The translations under genes were made by a program, and so were the position numbers. 64,000 bases of DNA from Mytilus trossulus (taxonomy: Eukaryota): assembly GCF_036588685.1 (NCBI RefSeq), contig NC_086378.1:66278001-66342000 (forward strand), read 5' to 3'. Below, in pieces: positions 3,001 through 57,299 of this stretch (the stretch's first letter is position 1; each line of letters begins with the position of its first letter). The notes under the pieces are model-generated. The model was not told the origin of the DNA, ran no database searches, and was given only the letters and a program-made list of their open reading frames with translations.

Positions 3001-5186
3001 CCTTTCTTGTAAGTGACCTACCCGATCAGTACTGATGTCGGTTGTGTACCCTTACTTCTCTTGTCAGTGACCTACCCGATCAGTACTGATGTCGGGTTTG
3101 TACGGCTTACCTTTCTTGTAAGTGACCTACCCGATCAGTACTGATGTCGGTTGTGTACGGCTTACTTTTCTTGTCAGTGACCTACCCGAGCAGTACTGAT
3201 GTCGGTTGTGTACCCTTACTTCTCTTGTCAGTAACCTACCCGAGCAGTACTGATGTCGGTTGTGTACGGCTTACTTTTCTTGTCAGTGACTTACCCGATC
3301 AGTACTGATGTCGGTTGTGTACCCTTACTTCTCTTGTTAGTGACCTGCCCGAGCAGTACTGATGTCGGTTGTGTACCCTTACTTCTCTTGTCAGTGACCT
3401 ACTCGAGCAGTACTGATGTCGGTTGTGTACGGCTTACCTTTCTTGTAAGTGATCTACCCGATCAGTACTGATGTCGGTTGTGTACCCTTACTTCTCTTGT
3501 TAGTGACCTACCCGAGCAGTACTGATGTCGGTTGTGTACGGCTTACTTCTCTTGTCAGTGACTTACCCGATCAGTACTGATGTCGGTTGTGTACGGCTTA
3601 CTTCTCTTGTCAGTGACTTACCCGATCAGTACTGATGTCGGTTGTGTACGGCTTACCTTTCTTGTAAGTGACCTACCCGATCAGTACTGATGTCGGTTGT
3701 GTATCCTTACTTCTCTTGTCAGTGACCTACCCGCGCAGTACTGATGTCGGTTGTGTACCCTTACTTTTCTTGTCCGTGACCTACCCGAGTAGTACTGATG
3801 TCGGTTGTGTACGGCTTACTTCTCTTGCCAGTGACCTACCCGAGCAGTACTGATGTCGGTTGTGTACGGCTTAATTTTCTTGTCAGTGACCTACCCGAGC
3901 AGTACTGATGTCGGTTGTGTACCCTTACGTTTCTTGTCAGTGACCTACCCGAGCAGTACTGATGTCGGTTGTGTACGGCTTACTTTTCTTGTCAATGACC
4001 TACCCGAGCAGTACTGATGTCGGTTGTGTACCCTTACTTTTCTTGTCAGTGACCTATGCGATCAGTTCTGATGTCGGTTGTGTACCCTTACTTCTCTTGT
4101 CAGTGACTTACCCGAGCAGAACTGATGTCGGTTGTGTACCCTTACTTTTCTTGTCAGTGACCTACGCGATCAGTACTGATGTCGGTTGTGTACCCTTATT
4201 TCTCTTGTCAGTCACTTACCCGAGCAGTACTGATGTCGATTGTGTACCCTTACTTTTCTTGTCAGTGACCTACGCGAGCAGTACTGATGTCGGTTGTGTA
4301 TCCTTACTTCTCTTGTCAGTGACTTACCCGAGCAGTACTGATGTCGGTTGTGTACCCTTACTTTTCTTGTCAGTGACCTATGCGATCAGTACTGATGTCG
4401 GTTGTGTACCCTTACTTCTCTTGTCCGTGACTTACCCGAGCAGTACTGATGTCGGTTGTGTACCCTTACTTTTCTTGTCAGTGACCTACGCGATCAGTAC
4501 TGATGTCAGTTGTGTACCCTTACTTCTCTTGTCAGTGACTTACCCGAGCAGTACTGATGTCGGTTGTGTACCCTTACTTTTCTTGTCAGTGACTTACCCG
4601 AGCAGCACTGATGTCGGTTGTGTACGGCTTACATTTCTTGTCAGTGACTTACCCGAGCAGTACTGATGTCGGTTGTGTACCCTTTCTTCTCTTGTCAGTG
4701 ACTTACCCGAGCAGTACTGATGTCGGTTGTGTACCCTTACTTTTCTTGTCAGTGACCTACGCGATCAGCACTGATGTCGGTTGTGTACCCTTACTTCTCT
4801 TGTCAGTGACTTACCCGAGCAGTACTGATGTCGGTTGTGTACCCTTACTTTTCTTGTCAGTGACCTACCCGAGCAGTACTGATGTCGGTTGTGTACCCTT
4901 ACTTCTCTTGTCAGTGACTTACCCGAGCAGTCCTGATGTCGGTTGTGTACCCTTACTTGTCTTGTCAGTGACCTACGCGATCAGCACTGATGTCGGTTGT
5001 GTACGGCTTACTTCTCTTGTCAGTGACCTACCCGAGCAGTACTGATGTCGGTTGTGTACCCTTACTTTTCTTGTCAGTGACCTACCCGAGCAGTACTGAT
5101 GTCGGTTGTGTACCCTTACTTCTCCTGTCAGTGACCTACCCGAGCAGTACTGATGTCGGTTGTGTACCCTTACTCCTCTTGTCAGT
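1..5186 (+). repeat. 54/55-bp tandem satellite array (~95 monomers; runs off the window start)
   Basis: Monomer TCTTGTCAGTGACCTACCCGAGCAGTACTGATGTCGGTTGTGTAC(CC|GGC)TTACTTC repeated head-to-tail. The CC variant is 54 bp and the GGC variant is 55 bp. Confidence 0.98.
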
Positions 5187-8896: not shown

Positions 8897-9106
8897 GCGT
8901 CATTGGTTTACGTCAATTAAAAAAATAAAATCAAACTGTCACACATTTTGTATGAATAATTTTATCGTTTGTATACATCTTGTCTTTTCAATGTCAGTTG
9001 CATATACGTGGTGATTATTAATTTCATTTGCATATTTCTGATGGAGATGTCAATCATGTAGGTCTTCGACAAGTTTCTGAGAATTGACAGGAACAAAGTC
9101 ACGTGA
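8897..9106 (+). promoter_or_regulatory. Putative proximal promoter of gene A1: CRE/ATF-like CGTCA and TTACGTCA, octamer ATTTGCAT, E-box TCACGTGA
   Basis: Motifs at 8898-8902, 8908-8915, 9026-9033 and 9099-9106. All are retained upstream of A2 (~32130-32340) and A3 (~53276-53501). Confidence 0.35.
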
Positions 9107-9171
9107 TTTATGTACAACTTTAGAGTAACGAGTAGGTTTGGAGTAAATACATATTCTAGATACGATCAGAG

Positions 9172-11255
9172 ATGATCATGTTGTTTCACACAATTGTCGT
9201 AAGTTAGATCAATATTTATAACAATACAAAAATTGTATACAGTGTTTGCAATTTGTAGATGCTATCAAAAATGTTCATATTTTCAAAATAATTTAATATA
9301 TATATGCGTGTTTTTAATTCTTTTGCCTTGAGCGTCCCTTTTCTTTAGGTGGTGTTTACTTGTCCTCTAAATACTAACTCATCATATACAAAATGTACTT
9401 AGTTATTCTAACACATCTGTTGACTCTTGCATTTCCAATTTTACTCAATTGTTGGGTCTCTGCCTTCTCTTAAAAACAAAATTTGTCAATATGCCAATCT
9501 TGTGTATTAAGTTGGAACCATGCAATATAACTACAAAGCATAAATTGAAAGTTTTACTTATGTAATGTTAGTTTTGATCATAGATTTTTTACGTAGGTTG
9601 TATTAGTTGTCCTGTATAAATCTGTTGATGCTGAGGTTGCCAATTCTACAAGAATATGTATACCACCAGCACCTGAAGATGACGATTATTTTAAGGACTT
9701 AGAACAGGGAGATGCAGATATAAGGTAAATGTCTTCGTAGTAAAGTCTAGTGGAAGTTGGCTGTTGTTGGTGTAGACACTTTCAAATGAAAATGATGGAC
9801 TGTACAAGATTTTAAAGTGTCCAAAAGCCTCATGTTTTTTTTTATTAATTATATGAATCTATGACAAACCAGATTGATGTGAAAACTTGTTTATGTTACT
9901 TTGTAATATGATAATCGCAATATTTGTAATCATCTTTATCATTATCCTTATAATTATTGTTGAAATTTTTACTTTTATTGTTGAAATTTTATCTTTTATT
10001 GTTGAAATTTTAACTTTCATTATCATCATTAGTGCTAAATTTTTATTATAAAAAACGTGAACTTTGTCTGTAGTGTTTGTGTTCAATTTTTTTTTCCATT
10101 TGTAGAGCTGCAATAAATAGAAGTTTAGATAGGGACACAGCACTTAAGGTCGAAACAGATAGAGCTGTCAATGAGTTAATGTTCGAAGCTAATCCAGTGT
10201 AAGTTTTGATACTCTTATATTGCAGTTAAGTTACTAAGTAAAGAAAAGTTTTAAAAAAGGAACAAATGTAATAAAATTATCCGTTTCAATATACAAAACA
10301 ATACATCTAACGGTTACTGTCAAAGTACCAGTTTGCTAAATTATTTTACAGGATAAAAAAAACCCCATGCAAATTGATGAATAAAATAATTTTTAATGTT
10401 CATGGTACATAGATATTTTTAATCAGGATTCTATTTTTATTTAATTATAACACATTGAAGGAAGGAATATCAATTGTTGATTTTTTTTCAGGTTTGTATC
10501 GACGGTTAGAATGTGTAAATATAAATACCGATCTTATGCCCCTTCCAAAAAAATCTGGTACCAAGGGAAAATGTGTTATGTCTTGCATTACTTCTGGTAT
10601 CAAATCTGGAGACACGTATATTGTCCGTAAGTACATGTATAACTGTTAATGTTGTTAGAACCAAAGATACCCAGTCTCTATCATTACATAACAGGGAGAT
10701 AACTCTGTCAGAATCAGCTTAACGTATTAATCACGTTCTATCCTTAAGGAAATGTTAAAAACTTTTCAATGATTAAAACTAGTGCTTGTCCGAACTTCTC
10801 TATGACATTTTTTTCCAATAAAGTGTGTTGATCAAATTTTTTGAACATTGTATGTTGTTGTAAAAGGGTCAAAGTAAACATTTTGTCAAAATTGATGAAA
10901 TTTAAACGAGCCGAATTAATTTTAGTCTAGGTGTATGGTATCACCTTCATTCTTTCAATAGAGTCCCATAAGGTCTCCAGCTATCTGTTTTCCCGATTTA
11001 TTCGAATTCATTTTAACATGATACTGAGCAATTTTTATGATTACCTTTTTGTTTCATTTCAGAAAGCAACTTTGCAGTAACGTTCCGTGTAATGAATGGT
11101 GGACCCCATACGTGTACCGATGTGTTCCATCTTGTAAGCGTTCCTTTTATATGTGGATAGCTTGTCCAACTGGTCACCATAGTTTCCCGTATAAGTACAT
11201 CAGAATAGAGAAAAGGTTACCACAATGTTGTGAATGTAAAAGATACAAGTGCTGA
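9172..11255 (+). CDS. Secreted Spaetzle-like cystine-knot protein, type A, copy 1 (191 aa; 189 aa from the second ATG at 9178)
   Basis: Exons 9172-9198, 9597-9724, 10106-10198, 10492-10626, 11063-11255; all GT-AG, phases 0,2,2,2. Protein MIMLFHTIVVVLVVLYKSVDA-EVANSTRICIPPAPEDDDYFKDLEQGDADIRAAINRSLDRDTALKVETDRAVNELMFEANPVFVSTVRMCKYKYRSYAPSKKIWYQGKMCYVLHYFWYQIWRHVYCPKQLCSNVPCNEWWTPYVYRCVPSCKRSFYMWIACPTGHHSFPYKYIRIEKRLPQCCECKRYKC*. AATAAA at 11295. Frame is conserved in all three copies. Confidence 0.9.
9955..10020 (+). repeat. 21-bp minisatellite in A1 intron 2
   Basis: TATTGTTGAAATTTTWNCTTT x3. The mirror in A2 (~31200-31285) has about four units. Confidence 0.75.
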
Positions 11256-13980: not shown

Positions 13981-16004
13981 TAAAATAAACTGATAGACTT
14001 CAACTTTATGATGGACATATGAAACACTATATCTCTTCCCTGACTTTGTTTGACATGAGATATAAAAATCTTAAAGTAAACAAATATCAAATTATTCCTA
14101 TCAGTAAAGGTTGAGGAATCATAGACATAATGTTTTCATGTCTATTCGGTTTTGGTGAAATTTAAAAAGTATCAACAAACAGTCATAAAAATACGAATAT
14201 ATGTAGCTGTGTATGATATTCAAACATGAATTCTTATTACAAAATAGGAAATTAAGCATGTCTGTTAAACATTTGAAGACATTAACCTTAACTTTACCAT
14301 GGAGAACAAATAGTGAACTAAATGTTAACAATAGACCTTAACAAAGAAATTCTATTATAAAACACTATCATTCGAATAGTTAAGCAACTAGGGGGTGCCC
14401 CATTTGGAGGTGCAGATGGAGTGTTCCTACATAAATATGGAAAGCTTACAATTGGAAATTTGAAATCATTTTGTTTATGGCATATTATTTTAATTGAATG
14501 GAACAAGAAGTATGACAAGAAAAGAAATAAAATATCAGATTCCTCTTTAATAACAATATTTGAATATAGTTCATGCAAAAGGCGATTTTCTAATATTTGG
14601 AAAAGTTGAATAATTTATCTGAAAATTTAATTGTGTATCATGTAAAAAGTCATCTTGTTTTTCCCCGTATTAAATTTTTATTATCTGCCAAATTAAAAGT
14701 TCTATCTTTTTTGTTTATTATTCTTGCTGATTTGTTTTTCGTCACTGTACTAATATACTTTAAACGACATCTTCCTTTTATGTAACTTGATGTCCACTTT
14801 GAAAAGTACAGATTGTTTCTATTGACCAACAAATGGATTTTTATGATTTCTAAACGCTTGCATGCGTTTTTTTTGGTTTTTTTTTCCCGTATTTCTGTTA
14901 TTTGTACAATATATATATTTTTTTTAAATGTCAAGTGTCATTGACCGCTAAACTTTTTAAAATCAAGGAGACAGACGATTTTCGTTATTTCGCTATACGT
15001 TTTCTTCGAAACTAGTTAAAAAATTAAAGATGAAAACACCCCCGGACCGTCAATTCGTTAAAGAGAATCATGGAGTTATAATGGCCTTATTTCATGTTTA
15101 TTATTTCCACTTTCGATGTAATTTGCCTCAAAACCAAATCTCTGTATCTAAAATTAATACATTAATTTATCAGTGTGAATTTAAGGCTCGATTATTTGAT
15201 TTCCTGTAGGGGCGGGGATGCCAGATCTGGTCTGATAAGAGCTGAGGGTGAGTGACCTTTGCGTAAGACAGGATGAAAATGAACTTATTATCCATATAGA
15301 ATCAAAATTATTAATTGATGACTAGCTCCAAATTACAGAAAATACTAAGGCTTACATATATGCTCGTTTGACAAGAATATAAATAGAGAGAGAGGTTCAA
15401 GGGATGACTCCTAAGTAAGGGAAGCAAGTTAAAAATCGCAAACAGTCTTTTAATTTACGTTGTAAGCAAGTAAAATATAAAAGTATCTTAAAGAAGTTAT
15501 CCGTTGAATCAGCAATCCCTCCCCCTTTTTAAACAGGTAAAATATAGCAAAAAAAAAATATCTTGAGGATGGTAAAAATATATTATCTTATAAACTATTT
15601 CTAAATGTACTAGCTGACATTAACAGAAAAATTCAAAAAAACTTCATGATTGTAAGAAATTAACAATCTGCGACATCACAATATGTTCCCTTATACAAAT
15701 TAAGATATTAATCGACACATCTTTCCTAGCTTCGCATATATGAAATATGTAAAAAGAAAAGTACACCAAGTAGGTTTGGTTTTAAAGAGGCGTGTCTAAA
15801 CGTGTCGAATTCGTCTGTGACGTTTTGCTCTAATGAGATTGTAAAGCCACGTACATGACGTAAAAACACGAGTATATCCGAAGATAAGAGGAGTGAATAT
15901 CAAATAAGACTTATTTCAAAGTATACGCCTCCTCCGCACGTGGTGGAGTTTTCTAACAACATAACTAGAAGTTGCTAGATTCTGATGACTTAAAGTTAAC
16001 AACT

Positions 16005-18799
16005 ATGCATTATATTCTGGTAAGCAATATTTTTCAAGTTACATATGATTTCTATGTTTGTATTCCAAAACAAATAAAGAAACATCGCAAAGATACTGTT
16101 TTTGGCTTTTGAAAATTAAGAAATAATGTGCTTTGTTATTTATTGCGTTCTTTATATAGCTAGATAACTTTGACAACTTGCAGGTTTTTTGTTTCGATTT
16201 TAAGAGTCTTGTGCAATGAAAAAGGGTAACAGGAATTACGGAACCCCAATATACTAATGGACAATACAACATACCACCCTACTTCCCCGACAAAAAAAAA
16301 ACAACCCCCCCTCCCAAAACAACAACAACACGTGGCATTTCAGTTAACACTTCAAGATTAAACAAGAACATTTTTTACAATAAAAAGCATTTTAAGGATC
16401 ACTTTAAAATCGTACAACAAGCAACGCATATTTTAGCGTCTTTTAAAGTGAATATTTGTTTTTGTGTTTTATTAATGTTGACTGCTTTGTTTTAGATTTT
16501 TGTTTGTTTTGCTGAACCTTTTATTTAAGCTGTTGTTAGACAATTTTTAATGAATACTCTTTATTTTTTTTTCAAATTTTTTTTTTACAAAATGTGAAAA
16601 TCTTTTATTTTCTTTACTAGCTTTTAGTGTTGGCGGCTTCATCTTGCTATGCACAAGATGACCAGTGTGACCCAAATGATGGAGATTGTTTTAGAGAGCC
16701 GTTTGCTGGTGTCATGACTGGCGAGGATGACCATTGTCCGTAAGTATTTCACATCAGTTCATATTTTGAAGGGAGAAGGAGGATTTTCAAATTAAATTAT
16801 CTGAATTGCAAATGACAAATAAAAGCAGCTGGATAATAAATACAGAAAACAACTATCGAAAATAGTTGGGCATAAAAGATGAAAAGACAAATTCGTTGTA
16901 GTAATTTGGCTCGTTTGATTGGTGTGGTTTTATGATATTCAGTATACAATATTTACAGAATGCATTTTTTCACTAAACAACAATACGCATGTGATGTATA
17001 AATAACACTTTACTTCGTTAATTATTCCAGGGTTGAAAAAATGCAAGCAACAATAGACAAAGACCCAGAGATAAAGGCTGAAGTCGAGGCTGCGAAACTA
17101 GCGATTGCTCACCTGACAAAACCTCCTGTTTCTCCGTAAGTGAATTTGAAAACTAAATTATATCCAAGTACTGCATGTACATGGCAAAAATCGGCAGGAG
17201 GCGAAGCTCGAGAAGCTGAATATATATTAAATGTTGTAAACAAATACAAATAATGGCTTGGTAGAGAGAATTTAATTCAAGTTCGTATATAAGCTTATCA
17301 ACGTTTGTATTTTTCAATTTCAATTCAATTCAATTTAAAACTTATAATAAATAAAATCAAATACATCGGAAATTTGTAAATCAGTAATATGGTGCCCTTG
17401 ATAGTATGTTTTAAAATATTCCATATATAATAATTTGTATAACGTTGTTTTCTTGTGTATGTTTTGATTTCATATCATCTGTTTAGATGTCGTCTCATTG
17501 GCGTGCACATCACGTCTTCTGGTGCTCATATTATTAAGATATGTTTAGAAATACATTATGAGAGTTCTAAGGAAACAATTCAACACTACTTAAAGTACGT
17601 ATAATGTCTACATCATACATACATGGATTGATAGTTACTTATGTATGTATTTATCGGTGATTTAGTGGGAAAAGGTGAACAACAAACTTAACGGGTGAAA
17701 ATAACCCAGAAATTTTATTTAGTTTTGTGTGCAAATTTCACCAAAATCACAAGTAAAGTATTCACGAAAATGTATAGATTGTTTCGTCCGATTTGTAATT
17801 AAAGTGACTGTCTAAGTTGAACGATGTACAGATAAATAATTACTTCCACTAGTGTCTGTGTATCAGCAGGTAAAAATTACACTAAAATACTTATTTCTTT
17901 TTTAATATAGAGTTGAACTAGGAAGTCCATTGTGTTACAAGAACTATTCAATATTGAAAGTGCCTCCAAAAATATGGATAAAGAAGGGGTATTGTTATTT
18001 CCATTGGTATTATGTGAAAAGCCAAATAACATATGTGAACTGTGGACAGTAAGTTATTTATTTTGTTAATGTTATTCTAATTTTGCTGTTCGTAATTTTA
18101 TTGACATGACACGCACTTCCGTTTTATAGTGTGTTGTTTCCATGCGAATTTATTACAATTTACTGATGCGATAGGAATGATATTGTTATATTTCAAGATC
18201 GGCTGCCAAACACGTGCACAATGAAAATCTGTCAAAAATAATAAAGAAGCATTCGATCCTTATACAAAATTGCAGTTTTGTACTACAAAAATAAAATTAC
18301 GAGTTCAATCTGACTTTTTCCATGCATTAATGTGACGTTGTCTTTGCAAGCATGTGATGCCATGTATGTTGATATTTGTATGTACATGTATAATTTAGTA
18401 ACGTTTCTCAATTCTTAATACGGACTCTTATGAAACATACCATACAGATAATTTTTTAATTGTCGTTTTCAAACAACATAGTCTTTATGCTAGTAAAAAG
18501 AGAAAAAGAAGGGACAGGCATATCAGTTTCCCGGTATATCTCCAAATTAACCATATTATGTTCATCTTTTTTTCAGCAAACAACGCTGCAGCAATTTGCC
18601 ATGTTCTATGCTGTGGTCCCCATCTTTCTGTTATCCTGCCAACTTCTTGTCACTGAAACTATACATGTTTTGTCCACATCTTAAACCGAAATACTGGTAT
18701 CCTTACTACGTCCGCCTTCCTCAGTGTTGTGAATGTAGGAGAACCTATTGTTGGTGGCTGCAAGCGTCACAGAGTCCCAAAGGACCATTTATTCCTTAA
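16005..18799 (+). CDS. Secreted Spaetzle-like cystine-knot protein, type B, copy 1 (199 aa)
   Basis: Exons 16005-16019, 16621-16739, 17031-17135, 17911-18048, 18577-18799; GT-AG, phases 0,2,2,2 as in type A. Protein MHYILLLVLAASSCYA-QDDQCDPNDGDCFREPFAGVMTGEDDHCPVEKMQATIDKDPEIKAEVEAAKLAIAHLTKPPVSPVELGSPLCYKNYSILKVPPKIWIKKGYCYFHWYYVKSQITYVNCGHKQRCSNLPCSMLWSPSFCYPANFLSLKLYMFCPHLKPKYWYPYYVRLPQCCECRRTYCWWLQASQSPKGPFIP*. AATAAA at 18810. Confidence 0.9.
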
Positions 18800-22709: not shown

Positions 22710-25690
22710 CTACGGTGCTTGCAGCCACCAACAATAGGTTCTCCTACATTCACAACACTGCGGAAGGCGGACGTAGTATGGATACCAGTATTTCGGTTTA
22801 AGATGTGGACAAAACATGTATAGTTTCAGTGACAAGAAGTTGGCAGGATAACAGATAGATGGGGACCACAGCATAGAACATGGCAAATTGCTGCAGCGTT
22901 GTTTGCTAAAAAATAGAATCATGGTAAATTTGTTGATATACCGGGAAACTGATATGTCTGCCCTTTTTTCTCTTTTTACTAGCATAAAGACTATGATGTT
23001 TAAAAATGACAATTAAAAATTATCTGTATCATATGTTTCATATAAGAATCCGTATTAAGAATTGCGAAACGTTACTAAATGATATATGTACATACAAATT
23101 TCAACATACATAGCATCACGTGCTTCCAAAGACAACGTCACAACAATGCATAGAAAAAGTCAGATTTTACTCGTAATTTTATTTTTGTAGTATAAAATTG
23201 CAATTTATATAAGGATCGAATGCTTTTTTTTAATATTTGACAGGATTTCATCATGCACGTGCATGGCAGCCGATCTTGAAATATACCACTACAATTCCTA
23301 TCGCATCAGTAAATTGTAATAAATTCGCATAATACACCACACTATAAAATGAAAGTGCGTGTCATGTCAATAAAATTACGAACAGCAAAATTAGAATAAC
23401 ATTAACAAAATAAATAACTTACTGTCCACAGTTTACATATGGTATTTGGCTTTTCACATAATACCAATGGAAATAACAATACCCCTTCTTTATCCATATT
23501 TTCTGTGGCACTTTCAGTATTGAATATTTCTTGTAACACAATGGAATTCCAAGTTCAACTCTATATTAAAAAAGAAATAAGTATTTAAGTTGATTGTTAA
23601 CCAGCTGATACATAAACACTAGTTGACGTATTTATTTTTTCTGTACATAGCCACTATAATTACAAATCGGACGGAACAATCTATACGTTTTCGTGAATAC
23701 TTTATTAGAATTCTCATAATATCTTTCGAAAAATATAATAATATGAGCATCAGAAGACGTGATGTACACGCCAATGAGAAGACATCAAAACAGATGATTT
23801 GAAATCGAGAACGTTCACAAGAAAACAACGTGATACAAATTATTATATATATATATGGAATATTTCAAAACACACTAAGGACGCCATACTACTGATCTAA
23901 AAATTTCCCATGTATTCGCTTTAATTTTTAATAAATTTTTTAATTGAATTGAATTAAATTTACAAAATACAAACATTGGTGAGCTTATTTACGAACTTGA
24001 ATTTAATTCTCTCTTCCAAGCCATTATTTGTATTTGTTCACAACATTTAATATACATTCAGCTTCTCGAGCCTCGCCTTCTGCCAAATTTTGCCATGTGC
24101 ATGCAGTACTTGGATATAATTTAGTTTTCAAATTTACTTACGGAGAAACAGGAGGTTTTGTCAAATGAGAAATCGCTAATTTCGCAGCCTCGACTTCAGC
24201 CTTTATCTCTGGGTCCTTGTCTAATGTTGCTTGCATTTTTTCAACCCTGCAACAATAATTAACCTATTAAAATGTAATTTAAACATCACATGCGTATTGT
24301 TGTTTAGTGAAAAAAATGCATTCTGTAAATATTGCATACACATTTATTCGTTCATTGTGTAATCATACGTTTTTTGATTGAGTTCAGTCTGCCAATTGAT
24401 ATTTTATCGTGTGTTTTTCTATGTTGTGATGTTATGCTATTGTTTCAGAAAAAGGAAGAAGTTTTGGATCCATTAAAACGTTTAATCCCGTTGCAAATGT
24501 TTGCACCTGTCCTAAGTCAGGAATCTGATGTACAGTAGTTGTCGTTTGTTTATGTAATATATACGTGTTTCTCGTTTCTCGTTTTGTTTATATAGATTAG
24601 ACCGTTGGTTTTCCCGTTTGAATGGTTTTACACTTGTAATTTTGGGACCCTTTATAGCTTGTTGTTCGGTGTGAGCCAAGGTTCCGTGTTGAAGGCCGTA
24701 CTGTAACCTATAATGGTTTACTTTTTAAATTGTTTTATTTGAATGGAGAGTTGTCTCATTGGCACTCACACCACATTTTCCTATATCTATTAATATATTA
24801 AAACCACACCAATCAAACGAACCAAATTACTAAAACGAATTTTTATTTTAATCTTTTATGCCCAACTATTTCCGATAGTTGTTTTCTGTATTTATGATCC
24901 AGCTCATCTGCTTTTATTTGTCAGTTGCAATTGAGATAATTTTATTTCAAAATTCTCTTCCCCCTTTAAATATGAATAGGTTTTCACTAATGTGGAATAC
25001 TTACGGACAATGGTCATCCTCGGCGGTCATGACACCAGCAAACGGCTCTCTAAAACAGTCTCCATCATTTGGATCACACTGATCCTCTTGTGCAAAGCAA
25101 GACGATGCCACCAACACTAAAAGCTAGTAAAGTAAAGAAGATAAAAGATTTTCACATTTTGTAAAAAACAAAAACTTAGAAATAATGTGTATTTATTTAA
25201 AAAATCACTACACACGATAACACATATTTTCAAACAACAGCTTAAATAAAAGATTTTAGCAAAACAACCAAAACAGTCAAACCAAGTAGTTAACATAAAT
25301 AATATATCAAAATAGTTTTATAAAAAGAAAACATTTACTTTCAAAGACGCTTTGTTTGTTGTACGATTTTAAAATTACTTAAACCGCTACGTGTTGAAGT
25401 GTTGTTAGTCTTTGCTCGGATTTTTTTTTCGGAGAAGTAGGGTGTATTATTAGACTATGATATTTTGTACTGTAAAGTAGTCTTTTGAGGTTCCGTTTTT
25501 CTTTTTACCTCATTTTTTTCTATTACACAAGACTCTTAAAATCGAAACGAAAACGTGAAAGTTGTCAAAGTTATCTAGCTTCATAAAGATTGAAAAGCAG
25601 ATTCTTTGCGATGATTCTTTATTTGTTTTGGAAAACACACAAAGAAATCATATTAACTTGAAAAATATTGCTTACCAGAATATAATGCAT
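22710..25690 (-). CDS. Secreted Spaetzle-like cystine-knot protein, type B, copy 2 (190 aa)
   Basis: Exons (transcription order) 25690-25676, 25123-25005, 24246-24142, 23560-23423, 22905-22710. Intact splice sites and all Cys; ends WWLQAP* (CAG>TAG). Confidence 0.88.
24340..24790 (-). mobile_element. Repeat insertion in B2 intron 2
   Basis: Absent at the homologous site in B1 (~16940) and B3 (~45800). Its 3' part is related to the 19985-20395 family. Confidence 0.7.
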
Positions 25691-30010: not shown

Positions 30011-32064
30011 TCAGCACTTGTATCTCTTACATTCACAACATTGTGGTAACCTTTTCTCTATTCTGATGTACTTATACGGGAAACTATGGTGACCAGTTGG
30101 ACAAGCTATCCACATATAAAAGGAACGCTTACAAGACGGAACACATCTGTACACGTATGGGTTCCACCATTCATTACACGGAACGTGACTGCAAAGTTGC
30201 TTACTGAAATGAAACAAAAAAGTAATCTTAAAAATTGTAATAAGTATCAAACTAAAATAAATTCGACAAAATGGGGAAACAGATAGCTGGAGACCTTATG
30301 GTACATTATTGAAAGAATGAAGGTGGTACCATACACCTTGACGAAATTTAATTTGGCTCTTTTTCTTTAAATTTTGACAAAATATTTACTTTGACCTTCT
30401 GACAACAACATACAATATTCAAAAAACGTGAACAACACACTGTCACAGAGACGTTTGGACAAGCACTAGTTTTGTTTATTGAAAAGAATTTAATAGAACG
30501 TTATTAATACATTCAGTTGATTTTGAAAGAGTTATCTCTCTGTTATGTAATGATCGTGACTAGGTAACTTTGGTTCTAAAACATTAAAAGTTATACATGT
30601 ACTTACGGACAATCCAAGTATTTCCAGATTTGATACCAGAAGTAATGCAAGACATAACACATTTTCCCTTGGTACCAGACTTGTTTGGAAGGGACGTAAG
30701 ACCGGTATTTATATTTACACATTCCAACCGTCCATACAAACCTGAAAACAAATCAACAATTGATATCCTTCCTTCAATATGTAAATTAAAAAAATAGAAT
30801 CCTGATTAAAAATTACTGTAAAGCAATGAATATTTCTTCAACAATTTGCATGTTTTTTTTTATACTGTAAAATAATTTAGCAAACTGTTACGTTGACAGT
30901 AACCGTTAGATGTATTGTTTTATATATTGAAACAGATAATTTCATTACATTTATTCATTTTTGTATACTTTTCTTTACTTAGTAACTTAACTGCAATACA
31001 AGAGTATGAAAACTTACAATGGATTAGCTTCGAACATTAACTCATTGACAGCTCTATCTGTTTCAACCTTAAGCGTTGTCTCCCTATCTAAACTTCTATT
31101 TATTGAAGCTCTACAAATACAAAATATTTTTGAACACAAACACTACAGACAAAGTTCACGTTTTTTTATAATAAAAATATAGCACTCATGATGATAATGA
31201 AAGTTAAAATTTCAACAATAAAAGATAAAATTTCAACAATAAAGTTAGAATTTAAACAATAAAAGTTAAAATTTCAACAATAATTATAAGGATAATAATA
31301 AAGCTGATTACAACTATTACGATAATTATATAACAAAGTAACATAAACAAGTTTTCACATCAATCGGGTTTTTCATAGATTTATATAGTTAATCAGAAAG
31401 CATGAGGCTTTGTGGCTGCTTTGAAATCTTGTACAGTCTATCATTTTGATTTAAAAGTGTCTACACCAAAAACAGCCAACTTCCACTAGACTTTACTACG
31501 AAGACATGTACCTTATATCTGCATCTCCCTGTTCTAAGTCCTTAAAATAATCATCATCTTCAGGTGCTGGTGGTATACATATTCTTGTAGGATCGGCAAC
31601 CTCAGCATCAACAGATTTATACAGGACAACTAATACAACCTACGTAAAAAATCTATGGTCACAACTAACATTCCATAAGTAAAACTGTTATACTTGATAG
31701 TTATATTGCATGGTTCCAACTTATACACAAAATTGGCATATTGACAAATTTTGTTTGTTAGAGATGACAGAGACCCAACAATTGAGTAAAATTGGAAATG
31801 CAAGAGTCAACAGATTTGTTAGAATAACTAAGTTTATACATTTTGTATATGATGAGTTAGTATTTAGAGGACAAGCAAACACCACCTCAAGAAAAGGGAA
31901 GCGCAAGGCAAACAAATTAAAAACACGCATATATATATTAAATTATTTTGAAAATATGAACTTGTTTGATAGCATCTACAAATTGCAAACACTGTATATA
32001 CAATTTTTGTATTGTTATAAATATTGATCTAACTTACGACAATTGTGTGAAACAACATGATCAT
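30011..32064 (-). CDS. Secreted Spaetzle-like cystine-knot protein, type A, copy 2 (191 aa)
   Basis: Exons 32064-32038, 31639-31512, 31110-31018, 30741-30607, 30203-30011; same lengths as A1, intact GT-AG. Exon 4 reads FVWTVGMCKYKYRSYVPSKQVWYQGKMCYVLHYFWYQIWKYLDCP. Confidence 0.9.
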
Positions 32065-44124: not shown

Positions 44125-46774
44125 TCATTTGGGACTCTGGGTCGCTTGCAGCCACCAACAATAGGTTCTCCTACATTCACAACACTGAGGAAGGCGGACG
44201 TAGTATGGATACCAGTATTTCGGTTTTAGATGTGGACAAAACATGTATAGTTTCAGTGACAAGAAGTTGGCAGGATAACAGAAAGATGGGGACCACAGCA
44301 TAGAACATGGCAAATTGCTGCAGCGTTGTTTGCTGAAAAATAGATGAACATAATATGGTTAATTTGGAGATATACCGGGAAACTGATATGCCTGTCCCTT
44401 CTTTTTCTCTTTTTACTAGCATAAAGGCTATGTTGTTTGAAAACGACAATTAAAAATTATCTGTATGATATGTTTCATAAAGTCCGTAATAAGAATTGAG
44501 AAACGTTACTAAATTATACATGTACATACAAATATCAACATACATGACATCACGTGCTTCCAAGACAACGTCACAACAATGCATAGAAAAAAATCAGATT
44601 TAACTCGTAATTTTATTTTTGTAGTATAAAATTGCAAATATAAGGATCGAATGCTTCTTTTTAATATTTGACAGGATTTAATCATGCACGTGCATGGCAG
44701 CCGATCTTGAAATATACCACTACAATTCCTATCGCATCAGTAAATTGTAATAAATTCTCATACTATAAAATTGAAGTGCGTGTCATTGAGATTTGGATCC
44801 TACTTTTATAGTGATTCTTCAATAAAATTACGAACAGCAAAATAAGAATATTATAACATTAACAAAATAAATAACTTACTGTCCACAGTTTACATAGGTT
44901 ATTTGGCTTTTCACATAATACCAATGGAAATAACAACCACCGTTCTTTATCCATATTTTTGGAGGCACTTTCAATATTGAATATGTCTTGTAACACAATG
45001 GAATTCCAAGATCAACTCTATATTAAAAACGAAATAAGTATTTTAGTGAAGTTTTAACCAGCTGATACATAGACACTAGTTGAAGTATTTATTTAACTGT
45101 ACATAGTTCAACTTAGACAGTCACTATAATTACCAAACGGACGGAACAATCTATACATTTTCGTGAATGCTTTATTAGAAATCTCATAATATATTTCGAA
45201 AAATATAATAATATGAGCATCAGAAGACGCGATGTACACGCCAATGAGAACAGATGATTTGAAATCGAAAACGTTCACAAGAAAACAACGTGATACAAAT
45301 TATTATACATGTTATATATAGAATATTTCAAAACACATTAAGGACGTCATATTACTGATCTAAAAATTTCCCATGTATTCGTTTTAATTTTTTATAAATT
45401 TAAATTGAATTGAATTAAATTTACAAAATACAAACGTTGGTGAGCTTATTTACGAACTTGAATTTAATTCTCTCTTCCAAGCCATTATTTGTATTTGTTC
45501 ACAACATTCAATATATATTCAGCTTTTCGAGCCTCGCCTTCTGTCGAATTTTGCCATGTACATACAGTACTAGGATTTGATTTAGTTTTCAAATTTACTT
45601 ACGGAGAAACAGGAGGTTTTGTCAAGTGAGCAATTGCTAATTTCGCAGCCTCGACTTCAGCTTTTATCTCTGGATCTTTGTCTAATGTTGCTTGCATTTT
45701 TTCAACCCTGGAACAATAATTAATCAATTAAAGTGTAATTTATACATCACATGCGAATTGTTGTTAGTGAAAACAATGCATTCTCCAAATACTGCATACT
45801 TAATATATTAAAACCACACCAATCAAACGAGCCATATTACCAAAACGAATCTTTGTTTTTATCTTTTATGCCCAACTATTTTCGATAGTTGTTTTCTGTA
45901 TTTTATTGTATCCAGCTGCTTTTATTTGTCATTTCCAATTTCAGATAACTTAATTTGAAAATCATCCTTCCCCCTTCAAAATATGAATCGACTTTCATTG
46001 ATGTGAAATACTTACGGACAATGGTCATCCTCGCCAGTCATGACACCAGCAAACGGCTCTCTAAAACAGTCTCCATCATTTGGATCACACTGATCCTCTT
46101 GTGCATAGCAAGATAAAGCCGCCAACACTAAAAGCTAGTAAAGAAAATAAAAGATTTTCACATTTTGTAAAAAAGAAAAAACAGGTTAAAAACAATGTGT
46201 ATTCCTTGAAAAATTTCTAACAACAGATTAAATAAAAGATTAAGCAAAAAAAACAAAAAAAATAAAACCATGCAGTCAACATTAATAAAACACCTAAACA
46301 AATATTTACTTTAAAAGACGCTAAAATATGCCTTGCTTGTTGTACGATTTTAAAGCGATCCCTTAAAACGCTATTTATTTTTAGTTCTTGTTTAATTTTG
46401 AAGTGTTCACTGAAATGCTACGTGTTGTTGTTGGTTTTTTTTTGTCTTTGCTTTCATTTTTTTTGCGGGGAAGTAGGGTGGTATGTTGTACTGTCCATTG
46501 GCTATTGAGGTTCCGTAGTTTCTGTTACCCCTTTTTATTACACAATAGTTATCAAAGGTACCAGGATTACAAGACTCTTAAAAATCGGAACAAAAGCGTA
46601 AGGGTTTTGAAAGTAATCTAGCTTTATAAAGATTGAAATAAGTCACAAGACACATTAACTTAATTTTCAAAAGCCAAAAACAGTATCTTTGCGAAATTTC
46701 TTTATTTGTTTTGGAATACAAACATAGAATTCCTATGTAACTTGAAAAATATTGCTTACCAGAATATAATGCAT
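44125..46774 (-). CDS. Secreted Spaetzle-like cystine-knot protein, type B, copy 3 (194 aa)
   Basis: Exons 46774-46760, 46134-46016, 45707-45603, 45017-44880, 44332-44125. Intact; ends WWLQATQSPK* (GGA>TGA). Confidence 0.88.
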
Positions 46775-50821: not shown

Positions 50822-53201
50822 TCAGCACTTGTATCTCTTACATTCACAACATTGTGGTAACCTTTTCTCTATTCTGATGTACTTATACGGGAAACTATGG
50901 TGACCAGTGGGACAAGCTATCCACATATAGAAGGAACGCTTACAAGACGGAACACATCTGTACACGTATGGGGTCCATTGATTACACGGAACGTGACTGC
51001 AAAGTTGCTTACTGAAATGAAACAAAAAAGTAATCATAAAAATTGTAATAAGTATCAAACTAAAATAAATTCGACAAAATTGGGGAAACAGATAGCTGGA
51101 GACCTTATGGTACATTATTGAAAGAATGAAGGTGGTACCATACACCTTGACGAAATTTAATCTGGCTCTTTTTCTTTAAATTTTGACAAAATATTTACTT
51201 TGACCTTCTGACAACAACATATAATATTCAAAAAACGTGAACAACACACTGTCACAGAGACGTTTGGACAAGCACTAGTTTTGTTTATTGAAAAGAATTT
51301 AATAGAACGTTATTAGTACATTCAGTTGATTTTGAAAGAGTTATCTCCCTGTTATGTAATGATCGTGACTAGGTAACTTTGGTTCTAAAAACATTAAAAG
51401 TTAAACATGTACTTACGGACAATCCAAGTATTTCCAGATTTGATACCAGAAGTAATGCAAGACATAACACATTTTCCCTTGGTACCAGACTTGTTTGGAA
51501 GGGACGTAAGACAGGTATTTATATTTACACATTCCAACCGTCCATACAAACCTGAAAACAAATCAACAATTGATATCCTTCCTTCAATATGTAAATTAAA
51601 AAGAATTGAATCCTGATTAAAATATCTATGTAGCAATGCATATTTATTCATCAATTTGCATGTTGTTTTTTTTATCCTGTAAAATAATTTAGCAAACTGG
51701 TACTTTGACAGTAACCGTTAGATGTATTGTTTTATATATTGAAACGGATAATTTTATTACATTTATTTAATAGCCAACTTCCACTAGCCTATCTTACAAA
51801 GACATTTACCTTATTTCTTTATCTCCCTGTTCTAAGTCCTTAAAATAATCGTTGTCTTCGGGTATACATATTCTTGTAGGATCGGCAACTTCAGCATCAA
51901 CAATATGACAGTTCTTGTCTATTCGTTTTTGATGCGTTTTGTTATTTGATTTTGCCATGTGATTATCGATTTTCCTCTGAGTTCAGTATTTTTGTGATTT
52001 TACTTTTTATTCACTTTTTTTAAATCTTTTCTTTGCTTGGTAACTTAACTGCAATACAACAGTATCAAAACTTACACTGGATTAGCTTCAAACATTAACT
52101 CATTGACAGCTCTATCTGTTTCTACCTTAAGCGTTGTTTCCCTATCTAAACTTCTATTTATTTCAGCTCTACAAATACAAAATAAAAATTTAAACGCAAA
52201 CACTACAGACAAAAATCACGTTTTTGATAATAAAAATGTAGCACTAATGATGACAATGAAAGTTAAAATATAAACATTAAAAGATAAAATTTCAGCAGTA
52301 AGTATAAGGTTAACGATAAAGATATTCTTCAACCTTTATGATAATTATATATCAAAGTAACATAAATTCGTTTTCACATCAATCTGGTTTGTCATAGATT
52401 CATATAGTTAATCCGAAAAAAATATGAGGCTTTTTGGTTGCATTAAAATCTTGTGCAGTCCATTATATTCATTTGAAAGTGTCTCCACCAAATTTAATAG
52501 CCAACTTCCACTAGCCTATCTTACAAAGACATTTACCTTATTTCTTTATCTCCCTGTTCTAAGTCCTTAAAATAATCGTCGTCTTCGGGTATTGGTGGTG
52601 TACATATTCTTGTAGGATCGGCAACCTCAGCATCAACAAATTTATACAGCAAAACTAACACAACCTTCGTATACGTAAACGTTTTATGGTAAAAATAAAA
52701 AAACACAACTAAAACAAACTTCGAACTGTAACAACTTATTAGGTCAAAAACTAACACAACATCAGTAAAACATTTTGATAAAAAACTAACACAACTTGAA
52801 CTACGTACCACTTCTAGTCGAAAAGCAACACACACTTCGTAAGACGTCTTTGAAAAAATATATATACTTGTATATATACATTTTATATTTTAGTTATATT
52901 GCATGGTTCCATCTTATTACACAAGATTGTCATTTTGACAACAAATTTTGCTTTTAAAAGATCGAGTAAAATTGAAAACAAAAAAAAGTTAAAAGATGTG
53001 CTAGAATAACTCAGTTTATACACTTTGTATATAAAGTAAAGTGAAGCGTAAGGCAAAAGAATTTAGAAAAACGAATATTGTTTGAAAACATGAATATTTT
53101 TGATAGTATCATTTATAAAGTGCAAACACTGAATACAGATTTTTTTCGTATTGTTTTACATAAATATTGCTGAAACTTACGAGAATTGTGTGAAACAACA
53201 T
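50822..53201 (-). CDS. Secreted Spaetzle-like cystine-knot protein, type A, copy 3 (188 aa)
   Basis: Exons 53201-53181, 52664-52537, 52168-52076, 51551-51417, 51011-50822. The first ATG is lost (starts MLFHTIL), and exon 5 has an in-frame 3-nt deletion (CNQWTP). Confidence 0.87.
51765..51903 (-). other. Duplicated partial exon 2 (with donor site) inside A3 intron 3
   Basis: Near-copy of ~52492-52639 with an in-frame 9-nt deletion. It abuts a repeat fragment at ~51904-52008. Confidence 0.85.
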
Positions 53202-56200
53202 GATCAGATCTGATCGTATTTAGCATATGTATTTACTCCGAAAGATTTAATCTATACTCTAACGTTGTTCATACACCACGTGAGTTTGTTTCTGTCAATC
53301 TTCATAAACTTAACGAACACGTACATGATTGATATCTCCTTCAGAAATATGCAATGAGATAAATTATGCAAATGAGATTTATAATCACCACGTATATGCA
53401 ACTGACATTAAAAAGACAAGATGTACAGAATCGATGATATTATTCATACAAAATATGTCACAGTGTTGTTTTATTTTTTTAATTGACGTAAATCAATGAC
53501 GATCAAAACCTTGATTTATGAGTTAAAGTGTCCTTTTGGTATATTTAACCTCTTTTCATTATCAATTAATAATGTGTGGCCTTTAGAACCTAGGGTGTCG
53601 AAGGCCTTTCTCGGATATTGTTTGTGGTTGGTTATAGTCATCTTGATAAATGGAAGCAAAAAGATCGTTTAGTAAATTGAGCTAGAAAAAAAACTTGTAC
53701 ATTTTCTAAACGCGACATAGTTTTTATGTTATATTAAAGATGTGCGTACTAACTCATTACCGCTGAAAATGTTAAAAAATATTTCAAAAACTAACTCTTT
53801 CTATATCGGTGGTAGCTAACTATTGTGTGTCAGTACATATACATTATGTAATATATATTGTGTGTATCTCTAACAAATGAAATTTAATTTGTTGACAATG
53901 TGTGAATACATTCCTAACATACCTTTATGTCATAAACTTATCAGTTTGTAAGGTTTCATTCCCAAGTTTTTGTGTAATGTGTTTCCAAAATTAGGAATAC
54001 CCTGTTCTGAGAGATCCTCCAATGTTTGGTGATTTCGCGCATGCCTTCCAAAAATTGCTTATTTTGAGTAGAGGAAAGATTTGCTGCTACGAAAGGTAGC
54101 TAAATTCAAACCAAGCACACTGCCAATGATGCAGAGCAAAAATGATTTCAATCTGATAAAAAATTGACTTAAGTATAACGAATTTTATCTGATGCTGTAT
54201 TTTTTTAATGGACATTGGCAGGATATTGTAAATCACGGGATTGCAGTTATTTTTTCAATCTAGAACTTGCCAATTTTAGTCTTTTTTATGCCATCGGAAT
54301 GATTAAACAATAACATAAACAATTTTATTTGCGGTACGGTGTTGATATAACGAAATCAGCAATGCGCGGTATCATCGGCTGCGCGGACACCGGGAACTCC
54401 ACTGTACATGGTATACATATGTAACACCATTTATTTTAAACATTTGTTTGTTTATTTTTCTCAGTATTTTACATTAAAAAAAATAATATCTTTTCATTTT
54501 GTCTACATACTTTTTAGTCTTGAGCCAGACACAAAACAGGATAGAAACAGTTAAATATGACTTTTATTGATAAAAGAGGTCGGGATATACTAAGGCGTAA
54601 TCCAGAACGTACAATACAAAGCAATATTAGTTGTTATGAAATAACAAGAATGTGTGTGCCTGTCGTATTCCAGTGATGTATTAGAAGTTCTCTTTTTATT
54701 AAATATTTTCAGAATCTAACGGAAAATGTGTGATCTTATTGTTCGTACACAATAGGGAACGAACGATAAGTCATTGGTTGATTTTTAATTGTTTTTTTTT
54801 GGTGTACGCTTTTGAAAATATTACACAAAATGCTTTAGATTCTAAACGGCGAATTGAGTGTTGATGGCAGATATTTGTTAGTCTCTGATGTTGTTCACAA
54901 CTTTTCTAGAATCATAGCAATGGCATTTGGAAGCCTCAATGTCATCCATAAACAAAACGTAAGATATCAGAATTGACACTGACATATTCTCTAAATTTAA
55001 TTCCGGTATACTTTCAGATAGACCGAAATTTCTATAAACAAAAATTAGCAATACTAAAAAAAATTACAAATATAAAAAAACATATGAATGCTAACAAAGT
55101 ATGTTCAGGTTTTTTTTTATTTCCTTTTCGTTAATGTTTGACACTTGCAATTTATAATTGTAGTCTGTGATTTGTTTCGCAAAGCATTGGTGAAAATAGT
55201 CTGATATATTTTTTTCTGTTCCGAAAACGCAATATTGAAAAACATTTTTATGCATAAACTTTTGCACATCATTGAAGACCCATTGTATAGAAAAATCTTT
55301 ATTTTTTACCTCAGGGGAACTGGAATCTTGTTTCTTCTTCTTAACTTTTATTGTTCTGTCCATTTCTACATCAGTAAGTTGTCAACTCCATTGGTTATTG
55401 TTAATATAAGTCTTTATTCTTTCCAGTTCTTTATTAAAAACAGTCTTTGTAAAAAAACATTAAATTGTCAATTGGAAAATCTGAACTGCAGTTCCATAAT
55501 ATTTCCCTAAAATTAAATGAGAACTCCAAACTATTATGTTTTTGACTTGTAGACTTTGTCCAAATATCAACACAATTTTATTAATATCATTTAATAACTA
55601 TGTTCCATCATTTCAGAATTACATTTTCAATCTGTATAATTGTATTTTGTGTAGGTTTCCTCGCGTAAACACAATCCATTCTTCACAATCTACCAAAATA
55701 TTTAATATACATTGAGTGCGGGTTAAATACTTTTTATAATGATGACTAATTTTAACACACCTATGCACATCAGTTGTAGAAGGCTTACATAGAACACAAT
55801 GCTCCTTCAAAAGTGACTTTGAAACAGCAATGTTTAGATATGATCACTATAACCATGTTCATCTTTACAGTTCCCCTGAGGTAAACAAAAAGTATATTTT
55901 TCTATACAAAGGGTCTTCAATGAAATGCAAAAGTTTATGCATCAAAAAATTTCTAAAAGAGGACCAACATATCGTCAACCATCTAAAATAATTTGTAAGG
56001 ATTGACATCAGTTCATTGGCGTTGCTCTTTCATGCTATTGTAAGGGATAGTTATCTGACAAAAACATCAATTGATTCCTATTTGAATAAAGATCTACACA
56101 TTGTGGATATTAACAACGTGGTTCATCTCCAGTGAGTCTTATTTTCGGCCTTTATTTGATAAGTTTGTATATCTTAAATTCATATTGAATGTTTTCCGGA

Positions 56201-56709: not shown

Positions 56710-57299
56710 TCAAAGCCAAACATTTGAAATCCTAGGATGTATCAGTACCGAAACCGTTGGAGAGCTATATGTAAAGATATTATTGTAATACTCATTCGGT
56801 ATGTGGATGTTAAAAGTAAGAAACTACAATGTGTCACTGGTCTACTTTTATGATAATGTTCTTTTTTATAGCACATGCAGCATTTAATATTCTAATCGTT
56901 ATCTTCCCGTCAAAGAATTTGGTTAAAAGCAAGATTCCAACCATGTCATACATGTTGTAGAGGTGTCATACTTAAGTTATGGGGAAACATTACATAGTTG
57001 GCTTCCTTAATAAATGCCTTCAGGTTATTGCATATTTAAAAAACAAAATCTTTATTCAACAGAATCAAATACTGTTTTTGTGATTAGTACAGCAGAAAAT
57101 TAATGAAATACATAATTGTTTTTATAGTTAGCAATTTCAAACTCAATATTTCAAAAAAAATTGACAGAAAAAGAGTTTAAAGGAAGCAATTCGCCGACAT
57201 ATTTCCGTATATGCATGTGACCTTACCGTGACTCTTTCTCGTAACAAATGGTGATCACAATACGCGTGGTTTTTTTATTAAGATACATTATCATCTGAT

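What the first reader, a model, noticed from the sequence alone, without database searches (positions are those of the whole stretch)
9597..11255. Acidic pro-region and highly cationic Tyr/Trp-rich knot: effector or adhesive rather than classic cytokine?
Seen (hand counts): the A1 knot (101 aa) has 14 Tyr, 6 Trp, 18 K/R and 3 acidic residues. The B1 knot (97 aa) has 14 Tyr, 14 K/R and 1 acidic residue. Pro-regions are net about -7 (A) and -10 (B) and share a helix-like motif (LDRDTALKVE / IDKDPEIKAE). Known: anionic propieces mask cationic antimicrobial peptides; Tyr(DOPA)/Lys richness typifies mussel byssal proteins; horseshoe-crab coagulogen is a Spaetzle-fold structural protein. Inference: the pro-region shields a sticky domain that may be antimicrobial, gel-forming or adhesive.
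Basis: partly seen in the sequence, partly recalled or inferred. Interest (0 to 1): 0.7.

Follow-up and report, generated by a model that had tools for sequence, protein, structure and literature searches.

The report
Mussel cystine-knot genes resembling byssus protein
A mussel gene cluster makes two small secreted proteins with a growth-factor-like knot fold whose closest described relative appears to be a protein of the mussel's anchoring threads, so they are more likely building material than signalling molecules, though where they are made is still unknown.

Summary
The counts are exact. The stretch is exons 2-5 of a five-exon Mytilus gene (A1, identical to M. trossulus XP_063443298.1), in a cluster of three A-then-B cassettes. 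All eight A1 and B1 introns appear as joints in RNA-like contigs. Both proteins have a signal peptide, an acidic pro-region (-7 to -10) and a basic Tyr/Trp-rich cystine knot (+12 to +15). There is no Pfam hit. Predicted folds match Spaetzle, coagulogen and noggin equally and modestly (Z 5.5-6.0). The main new result: the published cysteine positions and composition of mussel foot protein 17, a putative byssal-cuticle protein whose Perna homologue is foot-specific, fit this family's framework. A and B thus look like deep paralogues of mfp-17. Best reading (0.55): secreted matrix proteins whose pro-region balances a sticky knot until pH or proteolysis changes, possibly as A-B dimers (weak model support). 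Signalling ligand 0.2, antimicrobial 0.12. Against a removable propiece: no furin site, and the pro-region is predicted folded in B. Not shown: tissue, DOPA, cleavage, activity; mfp-17 could not be aligned directly.

The parts
9172..9198 (+). A1 coding exon 1 (ATG, start of signal peptide); cDNA 5' end near 9122
   Evidence: GT donor; joint 9198-9597 and an adaptor-like loose end at 9122 in run X5
9597..9724 (+). A1 exon 2: rest of signal peptide, acidic start of pro-region with Cys30
10106..10198 (+). A1 exon 3: helical part of pro-region with the LDRDT motif
10492..10626 (+). A1 exon 4: first part of the cystine knot (Cys91, 111, 127)
11063..11255 (+). A1 exon 5: rest of the knot, ending PQCCEC...C and stop. 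Whole A1 = 191 aa, identical to P0007 (XP_063443298.1, M. trossulus LOC134723671)
16005..18799 (+). B1 gene, 5 coding exons (16005-16019, 16621-16739, 17031-17135, 17911-18048, 18577-18799), 199 aa, same intron phases as A (0,2,2,2); cDNA 5' end near 15967
22710..25690 (-). B2 gene, 190 aa, shorter C-terminal tail
30011..32064 (-). A2 gene, 191 aa, identical to P0016 (XP_063443299.1)
44125..46774 (-). B3 gene, 194 aa, identical to P0018 (XP_063443300.1)
50822..53207 (-). A3 gene; first ATG is CTG, the second in-frame ATG gives P0017 (XP_063443301.1, 188 aa)

Best explanation
A and B are secreted, mussel-specific cystine-knot proteins of the Spaetzle/NGF/coagulogen/noggin fold group and deep paralogues of mussel foot protein 17. 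They most likely work as bulk components of a secreted, hardening matrix (byssal cuticle or another mussel secretion), not as trace cytokines. Shown: gene structure, splicing, signal peptide, charge split, fold class. Inferred mechanism: in an acidic secretory vesicle the whole protein is strongly positive (about +25 to +29 at pH 3) and stays dispersed. At seawater pH the pro-region turns negative (-8 to -11) against a +12 to +14 knot, net charge falls to +2 to +7, and the protein self-associates through charge pairing and its Tyr/Trp faces. The folded pro-helices probably cover that face, as peptide C does in coagulogen (recalled), and are probably held by a disulfide to the terminal Cys, so exposure would need a pH change or an internal cut rather than simple release. 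A and B may act as a dimer. Spare thiols and Tyr (possibly DOPA) would supply cross-links or redox buffering. That the matrix is the adult byssus cuticle specifically: about 0.3 of the 0.55.
For: mfp-17 link: all 15 Cys positions of Mcfp17 (AST36136.1) are listed in the supplement of PMC7018726. Its last 11 have gaps 17,11,5,5,14,14,18,1,2,7; the family has 20-25,16-19,5-6,5,7-11,14,15-21,1,2,4-5. The core pattern was met by 3 of 2,000,000 random placements and 32 of 500,000 shuffles of its own gaps, and not by Mcfp14, 15 or 16. By hand, listed non-Cys residues also fall in register with A1 (Ser six after the first knot Cys, Asn and Pro after the third core Cys, Pro two before CC, Lys-Lys/Arg-Tyr after the last knot Cys). 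Composition: Mcfp17 C 7.4, Y 8.4, W 3.9, K 8.4%; A1 C 6.8, Y 8.4, W 3.1, K 7.3%. mfp-16 to -19 are described as putative Cys-rich cuticle-gland proteins (PMC7018715 passages). The Perna viridis mfp-17 homologue has foot TPM 1725 against at most 2.5 in six other tissues (supplement of PMC7971044). Fold: B model pLDDT 73, pTM 0.64, pro helices 46-55 and 57-73 at pLDDT about 78-89; coagulogen Z 5.7 (132 aligned, rmsd 4.7), Spaetzle 5.5 (85, 6.2), noggin 5.5 (118, 4.6). Charges by pH. Three cassettes and purifying selection on knots (pN 0.012-0.040, pS 0.04-0.17). Of 12 B, C, D, E and 7 A proteins, 15 of 19 have a terminal Cys together with a pro-region Cys, and P0014 lacks both Cys44 and the terminal Cys. 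A-B knot complex 0.59 against best control 0.01, runs agreeing in at least 97% of contacts, partner pLDDT at least 82; the tool rates this weak (at 0.60 or under: 5 of 78 solved complexes, all 4 passing mismatches of 180), and solved knot dimers may be recalled by the model.
Against: No tissue, proteomic or DOPA data for A or B. The mfp-17 sequence was never aligned: homology rests on published residue numbers, my pattern ranges were widened after seeing them, and one Mcfp17 gap sits at the edge of the range. No record named mfp-17 came back from the profile searches, so it is distant or hidden. The M. californianus A and D orthologues (188 and 180 aa) match none of the listed lengths of Mcfp7-18, so they were not among the foot-gland proteins in that table. 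Tyr richness is not family-wide: 5-6 Tyr in the D and E knots. Tyr next to Lys/Arg is 6-7 of 14 in A and 2-3 of 13-14 in B, about chance by my arithmetic. All Z scores are under 8 and tied with signalling proteins. P0010 keeps Cys44 without the terminal Cys, and C-type lacks the terminal Cys, so the tether is not universal. In the A model the pro-region is low confidence.
Confidence: 0.55

Rival explanations
1. A signalling ligand or antagonist: a divergent Spaetzle/neurotrophin-like cytokine for one of the mussel Toll-like receptors, or a noggin/sclerostin-like BMP or Wnt antagonist whose basic surface binds heparan sulfate.
For: ESM Atlas: the B knot is nearest to Spaetzle-domain clusters (0.92, 202 shared features, PF16077 in 99% of members); whole A nearest to clusters with 22-25% Spaetzle and one with 53% Noggin (0.92-0.93). 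Spaetzle Z 6.0 (66 aligned, rmsd 2.5) and noggin 5.5. Sclerostin is the only recurring PDB sequence match (E 0.18-0.7), and one M. edulis record is auto-named SOST. Purifying selection fits a receptor ligand too.
Against: No Pfam family at cut-off; Spaetzle reaches only E 0.27 in 2 of 19 members. The Spz1 pro-domain is described as natively unstructured and cut at the pro/knot junction (PMC9427763 passages); here the B pro-region is predicted helical and only 2 of 19 proteins have Arg within 2 residues of the first knot Cys. All named relatives are Mytilus. The closest described relative is a foot-specific, highly expressed protein.
Confidence: 0.2
2. A cationic antimicrobial or agglutinating effector kept latent by an anionic propiece, in haemocytes, mucus or the byssus surface.
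For: Knot +12 to +15 and 22% aromatic, pro-region -7 to -10; the charge split is kept in subfamilies C and D; tandem amplification. Defence genes occur among Perna foot-specific genes (PMC7971044 passages).
Against: No dibasic site in the six window proteins. Knots are as conserved as or more conserved than pro-regions, with pN well below pS, the reverse of the conserved-pro, hypervariable-mature pattern given for mussel CRP-I peptides (PMC4558851, start of abstract only). A 100-residue disulfide-locked beta fold is unlike small amphipathic peptides (recalled). A loose NF-kB pattern found no site within 400 bp upstream of A1 or B1 (weak test).
Confidence: 0.12
3. A true coagulogen analogue: a haemolymph or mucus gelling protein that polymerises head to tail after a protease removes the pro-helices at a wound.
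For: Coagulogen 1aoc aligns over model residues 22-182, including the pro-helices (Z 5.7; 5.5). A lone Lys/Arg lies 13-15 residues before the first knot Cys in 11 of 12 B, C, D and E proteins.
Against: 8-9% identity, Z tied with Spaetzle and noggin. In B that Lys is followed by Pro; A lacks it. No expression evidence for haemocytes.
Confidence: 0.08

Closest known systems
Mussel foot protein 17 (M. californianus mfp-17, AST36136.1; Perna viridis pvir_s00049g9)
   Same: About 200 aa, secreted, 11-Cys C-terminal framework with C-x4-C-x4-C, C-x13-C and P-x-CC-x-C-K-K/R-Y; near-identical Cys, Tyr, Trp, Lys content; a pro-region Cys plus a terminal Cys.
   Different: First two knot gaps shorter (17 and 11 against 20 and 16); fewer Glu (1.5% against 4.7%); not the orthologue of A or B; known foot expression, whereas the tissue of A and B is unknown.
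Spaetzle (PF16077) / neurotrophin cystine knots
   Same: Signal peptide, pro-region, C-terminal cystine knot ending CCxC; best or tied structural match (Z 5.1-6.0); nearest Atlas clusters.
   Different: Below Pfam cut-off; short (about 70 aa) pro-region predicted helical in B; 4-6 extra Cys; no conserved junction Arg or furin site; 14% Tyr; found only in Mytilus among named records.
Horseshoe-crab coagulogen (PDB 1aoc)
   Same: Similar size; helical N-terminal part packed with a cystine knot, 131-132 residues aligned at rmsd 4.3-4.7; a structural use of the fold.
   Different: 8-9% identity; cleavage sites and polymerisation not shown here; different phylum, probably separate recruitment.
Noggin and sclerostin/DAN antagonists
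   Same: Noggin: helical segment before a knot, Z 5.5 over 115-118 residues. Sclerostin: weak sequence likeness in the second finger (E 0.18-0.7).
   Different: No Noggin or DAN Pfam hit; C-x4-C instead of the CxGxC ring motif (motif recalled); CCxC ending.

Membership tests
Cystine-knot growth-factor fold | Two beta-hairpin fingers with knot cysteines in order | tested here: met
   AF2 models of A and B types; the top 18 of 50 and top 27 of 35 VIA rows are cystine-knot proteins; Z under 8; 10 invariant Cys in 19 of 19. Disulfide pairing itself not read from coordinates.
Spaetzle (PF16077) | Profile score above the Pfam cut-off (27 bits) | tested here: not met
   0 of 6 A-type records; 2 of 19 members at best E 0.27, 12.3 bits
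Spaetzle (PF16077) | Unstructured pro-domain cut by a trypsin-like or furin-like protease at the pro/knot junction | tested here: inconclusive
   Feature from PMC9427763 passages. B pro-region predicted helical, A low confidence; no dibasic site; junction Arg in 2 of 19; real processing not testable
Spaetzle (PF16077) | Covalent dimer through the first Cys of CCxC | tested here: inconclusive
   CC is invariant, but an extra invariant Cys could pair with it within the chain; A-B model weak, no contacts given
Spaetzle (PF16077) | Activates a Toll receptor | not testable with these tools
   needs a reporter assay
mfp-17 family of byssal proteins | Cysteine framework and composition | tested here: met
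   from published residue numbers only, pattern widened after the fact
mfp-17 family of byssal proteins | Significant full-sequence similarity to mfp-17 | not testable with these tools
   sequence not obtained; no record of that name
mfp-17 family of byssal proteins | High foot-gland expression and presence in byssus | not testable with these tools
   runs carry no tissue label and contig depth cannot rank genes
DOPA adhesive mussel foot proteins (mfp-1, -3, -5) | Tyr converted to DOPA; disordered Gly/Lys/Tyr-rich chain with no or few Cys | tested here: inconclusive
   DOPA not testable. Architecture differs: Mcfp3 variants 0 Cys and 19-21% Gly against 13 Cys and 1.6% Gly in A1
Cationic antimicrobial peptides with anionic propiece | Acidic pro-region balancing a cationic domain | tested here: met
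Cationic antimicrobial peptides with anionic propiece | Conserved processing site and rapidly varying mature region | tested here: not met
   no dibasic site; knot pN 0.012-0.040 below pS in 6 of 6 pairs
Coagulogen | Helical peptide covering the knot, excised to allow polymerisation | tested here: inconclusive
   architecture similar; excision and polymerisation not testable; mechanism recalled

The most novel reading that the evidence does not exclude
Mussels have turned a Spaetzle-type cytokine fold into a family of structural building blocks (A, B, C, D, mfp-17) with a tethered acidic pro-domain that acts as a pH- or protease-operated latch. Co-inherited A-B pairs assemble as knot heterodimers into the cysteine-rich matrix of the byssal cuticle or a related secretion: a second, independent case of the coagulogen trick, used for wet material fabrication instead of clotting.
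Probability: 0.2. Interest if true: 0.8.

Novelty: new variant of a known kind. Interest (0 to 1): 0.52.

Why it matters
The Cys-rich proteins of the byssal cuticle matrix (mfp-16 to -19) are described as putative and poorly characterised in the passages read. If mfp-17 and these paralogues are cystine knots with a charged pro-domain, that matrix has a folded, latch-bearing building block rather than only disordered DOPA chains, and its liquid-to-solid change becomes testable with small recombinant proteins. It would also be an example of a cytokine fold recruited as material. If they are ligands instead, they are candidates for mussel Toll-like receptors, for which PMC7773633 (passages) reports only one molluscan Spaetzle homologue and no shown role.

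Tried and rejected
First splice model was off by one base and gave a wrong frame for exon 4; corrected and confirmed. No whole genome is held. Pfam on 8 single exons: only a chance SipA row. My first guess that this is mfp-15 was dropped: Mcfp15 is 249 aa with 2 Trp and does not fit the Cys pattern (13 of its 14 Cys are listed). The Mcfp14 control was entered with 11 of its 12 Cys. P0004 was mis-parsed because of an extra Cys; its row is counted in the 19 but is unreliable. P0022 (6679 aa) matched only the acidic N-terminus and was left out. P0001, P0005 and P0015 are A-B fusions that look like gene-model errors (they break at PQCCE; RNA contigs run through the A1 stop) and were not treated as real. 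Metagenome scan: 60 pattern hits, none confirmed. No RNA holder on record among 21 runs from 10 studies; depth not used. Foldseek: no match at E<=0.001 for either model. Tree of 21 proteins separates A, B, C and D/E but deep joins are weak. Ten paper searches found no description of these genes and none calling mfp-17 a cystine knot; DeMartini et al. 2017, the defining paper, is not held and may say more, as may its supplement. Passages of PMC12817120, 10.1101/2024.07.05.602216, PMC6193008, PMC10225672, PMC6109138 and PMC6680511 added nothing. Three look-ups of earlier scan findings returned nothing.

Full report
What is there. The window is AT-rich animal DNA. The finding covers exons 2-5 of a five-exon gene, A1; the ATG exon lies at 9172-9198. 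The spliced product is 191 aa and identical to Mytilus trossulus XP_063443298.1, annotated as uncharacterised. A second gene, B1 (16005-18799, 199 aa), follows on the same strand. The A-then-B cassette occurs three times: once on +, twice on -. A and B are 32% identical over 168 columns and share intron phases 0,2,2,2. All eight A1 and B1 introns appear as GT..AG joints in contigs of 3 of 4 runs laid, and one small run shows adaptor-like loose ends at 9122 and 15967, so both gene types are spliced in the same library. The runs are only guessed to be RNA, carry no tissue label, and many contigs carry letters of paralogues or other alleles.

The observation. Every count is exact: A1 knot 101 aa with 14 Tyr, 6 Trp, 18 K/R, 3 D/E; B1 knot 97 aa with 14 Tyr, 14 K/R, 1 D/E; pro-regions -7 and -10. 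Tyr, Trp and the lack of acid are beyond ordinary backgrounds; K/R alone is not (backgrounds recalled). The shared pro motif is weak between A and B alone (no BLASTP alignment) but holds across the family: its Leu is invariant in 19 of 19, and subfamily D repeats LDRDT.

Relatives. Three word searches and one full profile search returned only Mytilus records and a few unnamed ones. They add subfamilies C and D (on other, differently sized contigs than A and B) and an unnamed E. Ten cysteines and PQCCEC are invariant. The acidic-pro, basic-knot split is kept in C and D and is weak in E; Tyr falls to 9-10 in C and 5-6 in D and E. So charge asymmetry is the family trait and extreme Tyr richness is a trait of A and B. 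Among the window paralogues the knots show pN 0.012-0.040 against pS 0.04-0.17 in 6 of 6 pairs.

Fold. No Pfam family reaches cut-off; Spaetzle appears at E 0.27 in 2 of 19. The Atlas places the B knot nearest to Spaetzle-domain clusters (0.92). AF2 gives a cystine-knot-type fold for both types. The A model (pLDDT 59, knot about 70) matches Spaetzle Z 5.1, NGF 4.8 and IL-17 4.3. The B model (pLDDT 73, pTM 0.64) has two confident pro-region helices and matches coagulogen over nearly its whole length (Z 5.7, 132 aligned, rmsd 4.7), tied with Spaetzle (5.5-6.0) and noggin (5.5). These Z values are modest and show fold class, not function.

The link to the byssus. The supplement of PMC7018726 lists residue numbers for M. 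californianus foot proteins (parts 7 and 11 read). Mcfp17 is 203 aa with 15 Cys, 17 Tyr and 8 Trp. Its last 11 cysteines follow the family's order and nearly its spacing, including C-x4-C-x4-C, C-x13-C and P-x-CC-x-C followed by Lys-Lys-Tyr. The core pattern arose in 3 of 2,000,000 random placements and 32 of 500,000 gap shuffles, and Mcfp14, 15 and 16 failed it. I set the ranges after seeing the numbers, so these rates are generous. Composition is nearly the same as A1. mfp-16 to -19 are described as putative Cys-rich cuticle-gland proteins thought to form the cuticle matrix and buffer DOPA oxidation (PMC7018715 and PMC9999432, passages). The Perna homologue is foot-specific at 1725 TPM (PMC7971044, supplement row). 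Against reading too much into this: mfp-17 is not the orthologue of A or B, no record of that name came back from my searches, and the M. californianus A orthologue (188 aa) matches no listed length of Mcfp7-18. A and B may therefore serve another secretion or life stage.

How it most likely works. Shown: secreted architecture, charge split, fold class, paired genes, splicing. Inferred: with disulfides closed, the mature proteins carry +24 to +29 at pH 3 and +2 to +7 at pH 8.1, as the pro-region goes from about +7 to -8 to -11. That suits storage in acidic vesicles and association on release into seawater (acidic storage of foot proteins: PMC9999432 passage). The pro-region does not look like a simple disposable propiece: no dibasic site in the six window proteins, junction Arg in 2 of 19, and a pro-region Cys together with a terminal Cys in 15 of 19, both lost in P0014, which suggests a disulfide tether. 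Exceptions are P0010 and the C type. A lone basic residue 13-15 before the knot in 11 of 12 B, C, D and E proteins leaves an internal cut possible. A has 13 mature Cys, so one thiol is free for a partner or for redox. The A-B knot pair scored 0.59 against 0.01 for the best control, which the tool rates weak: at 0.60 or under, 5 of 78 solved complexes and all 4 passing mismatches of 180; solved knot dimers may be recalled.

Rivals. A Toll ligand or a noggin/sclerostin-like antagonist (0.2) fits the fold and the purifying selection, but not the junction features described for Spaetzle (PMC9427763 passages) or the nearest described relative. An antimicrobial with an anionic propiece (0.12) fits the charges but not the conservation pattern or the missing site. 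A clotting protein like coagulogen (0.08) fits the architecture with no tissue evidence.

Verdict. The genes are already annotated, without function. I found no text that links them to mfp-17 or calls mfp-17 a cystine knot in ten searches, but the paper that defined mfp-17 could not be read and may cover part of this. New variant of a known kind; interest 0.52.

Noticed in passing
window 1-5186 and 36980-41328: Two arrays of a 54-55 bp minisatellite (about 95 and 80 copies) in opposite orientation, at the outer ends of the inverted A1-B1 / B2-A2 duplication; the long ORFs at 37151-40419 are by-products with no Pfam hit.
   Followed up: partly
window 57288-60624 and 60627-63965: A 3.3-kb tandem duplication at 99.85% identity, each copy with a somatomedin-B-like exon on the - strand (57560-57907, 60900-61247; PF01033 E 0.0017, below cut-off). 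Very recent duplication or an assembly artefact.
   Followed up: partly
window 9100-9105, 32131-32136, 53277-53282, 15937-15942: A CACGTG E-box 20-30 bases upstream of the cDNA 5' end in all three A copies and in B1, but not at that place in B2 or B3.
   Followed up: partly
window 51809-51901 (-): A partial extra copy of A exon 2 inside an A3 intron; A3 also has CTG in place of the first ATG and a weak AAG acceptor at exon 2.
   Followed up: no
window 10494-10637: Exon 4 of all three A genes has a second open frame with three Cys; the RNA joints support the Tyr-rich frame.
   Followed up: yes
Mcfp15 (AST36134.1), supplement of PMC7018726: Its listed cysteines end in a C-x3-C-x-C arrangement and it has 24 Tyr; it may be a second, different cystine knot in the byssus. 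I recall a Spaetzle-like remark about it but could not check that.
   Followed up: no
proteins P0001, P0005, P0015: Public M. edulis and M. galloprovincialis models fuse A to B at PQCCE; probably errors, but they show the same A-then-B order in other Mytilus species.
   Followed up: partly
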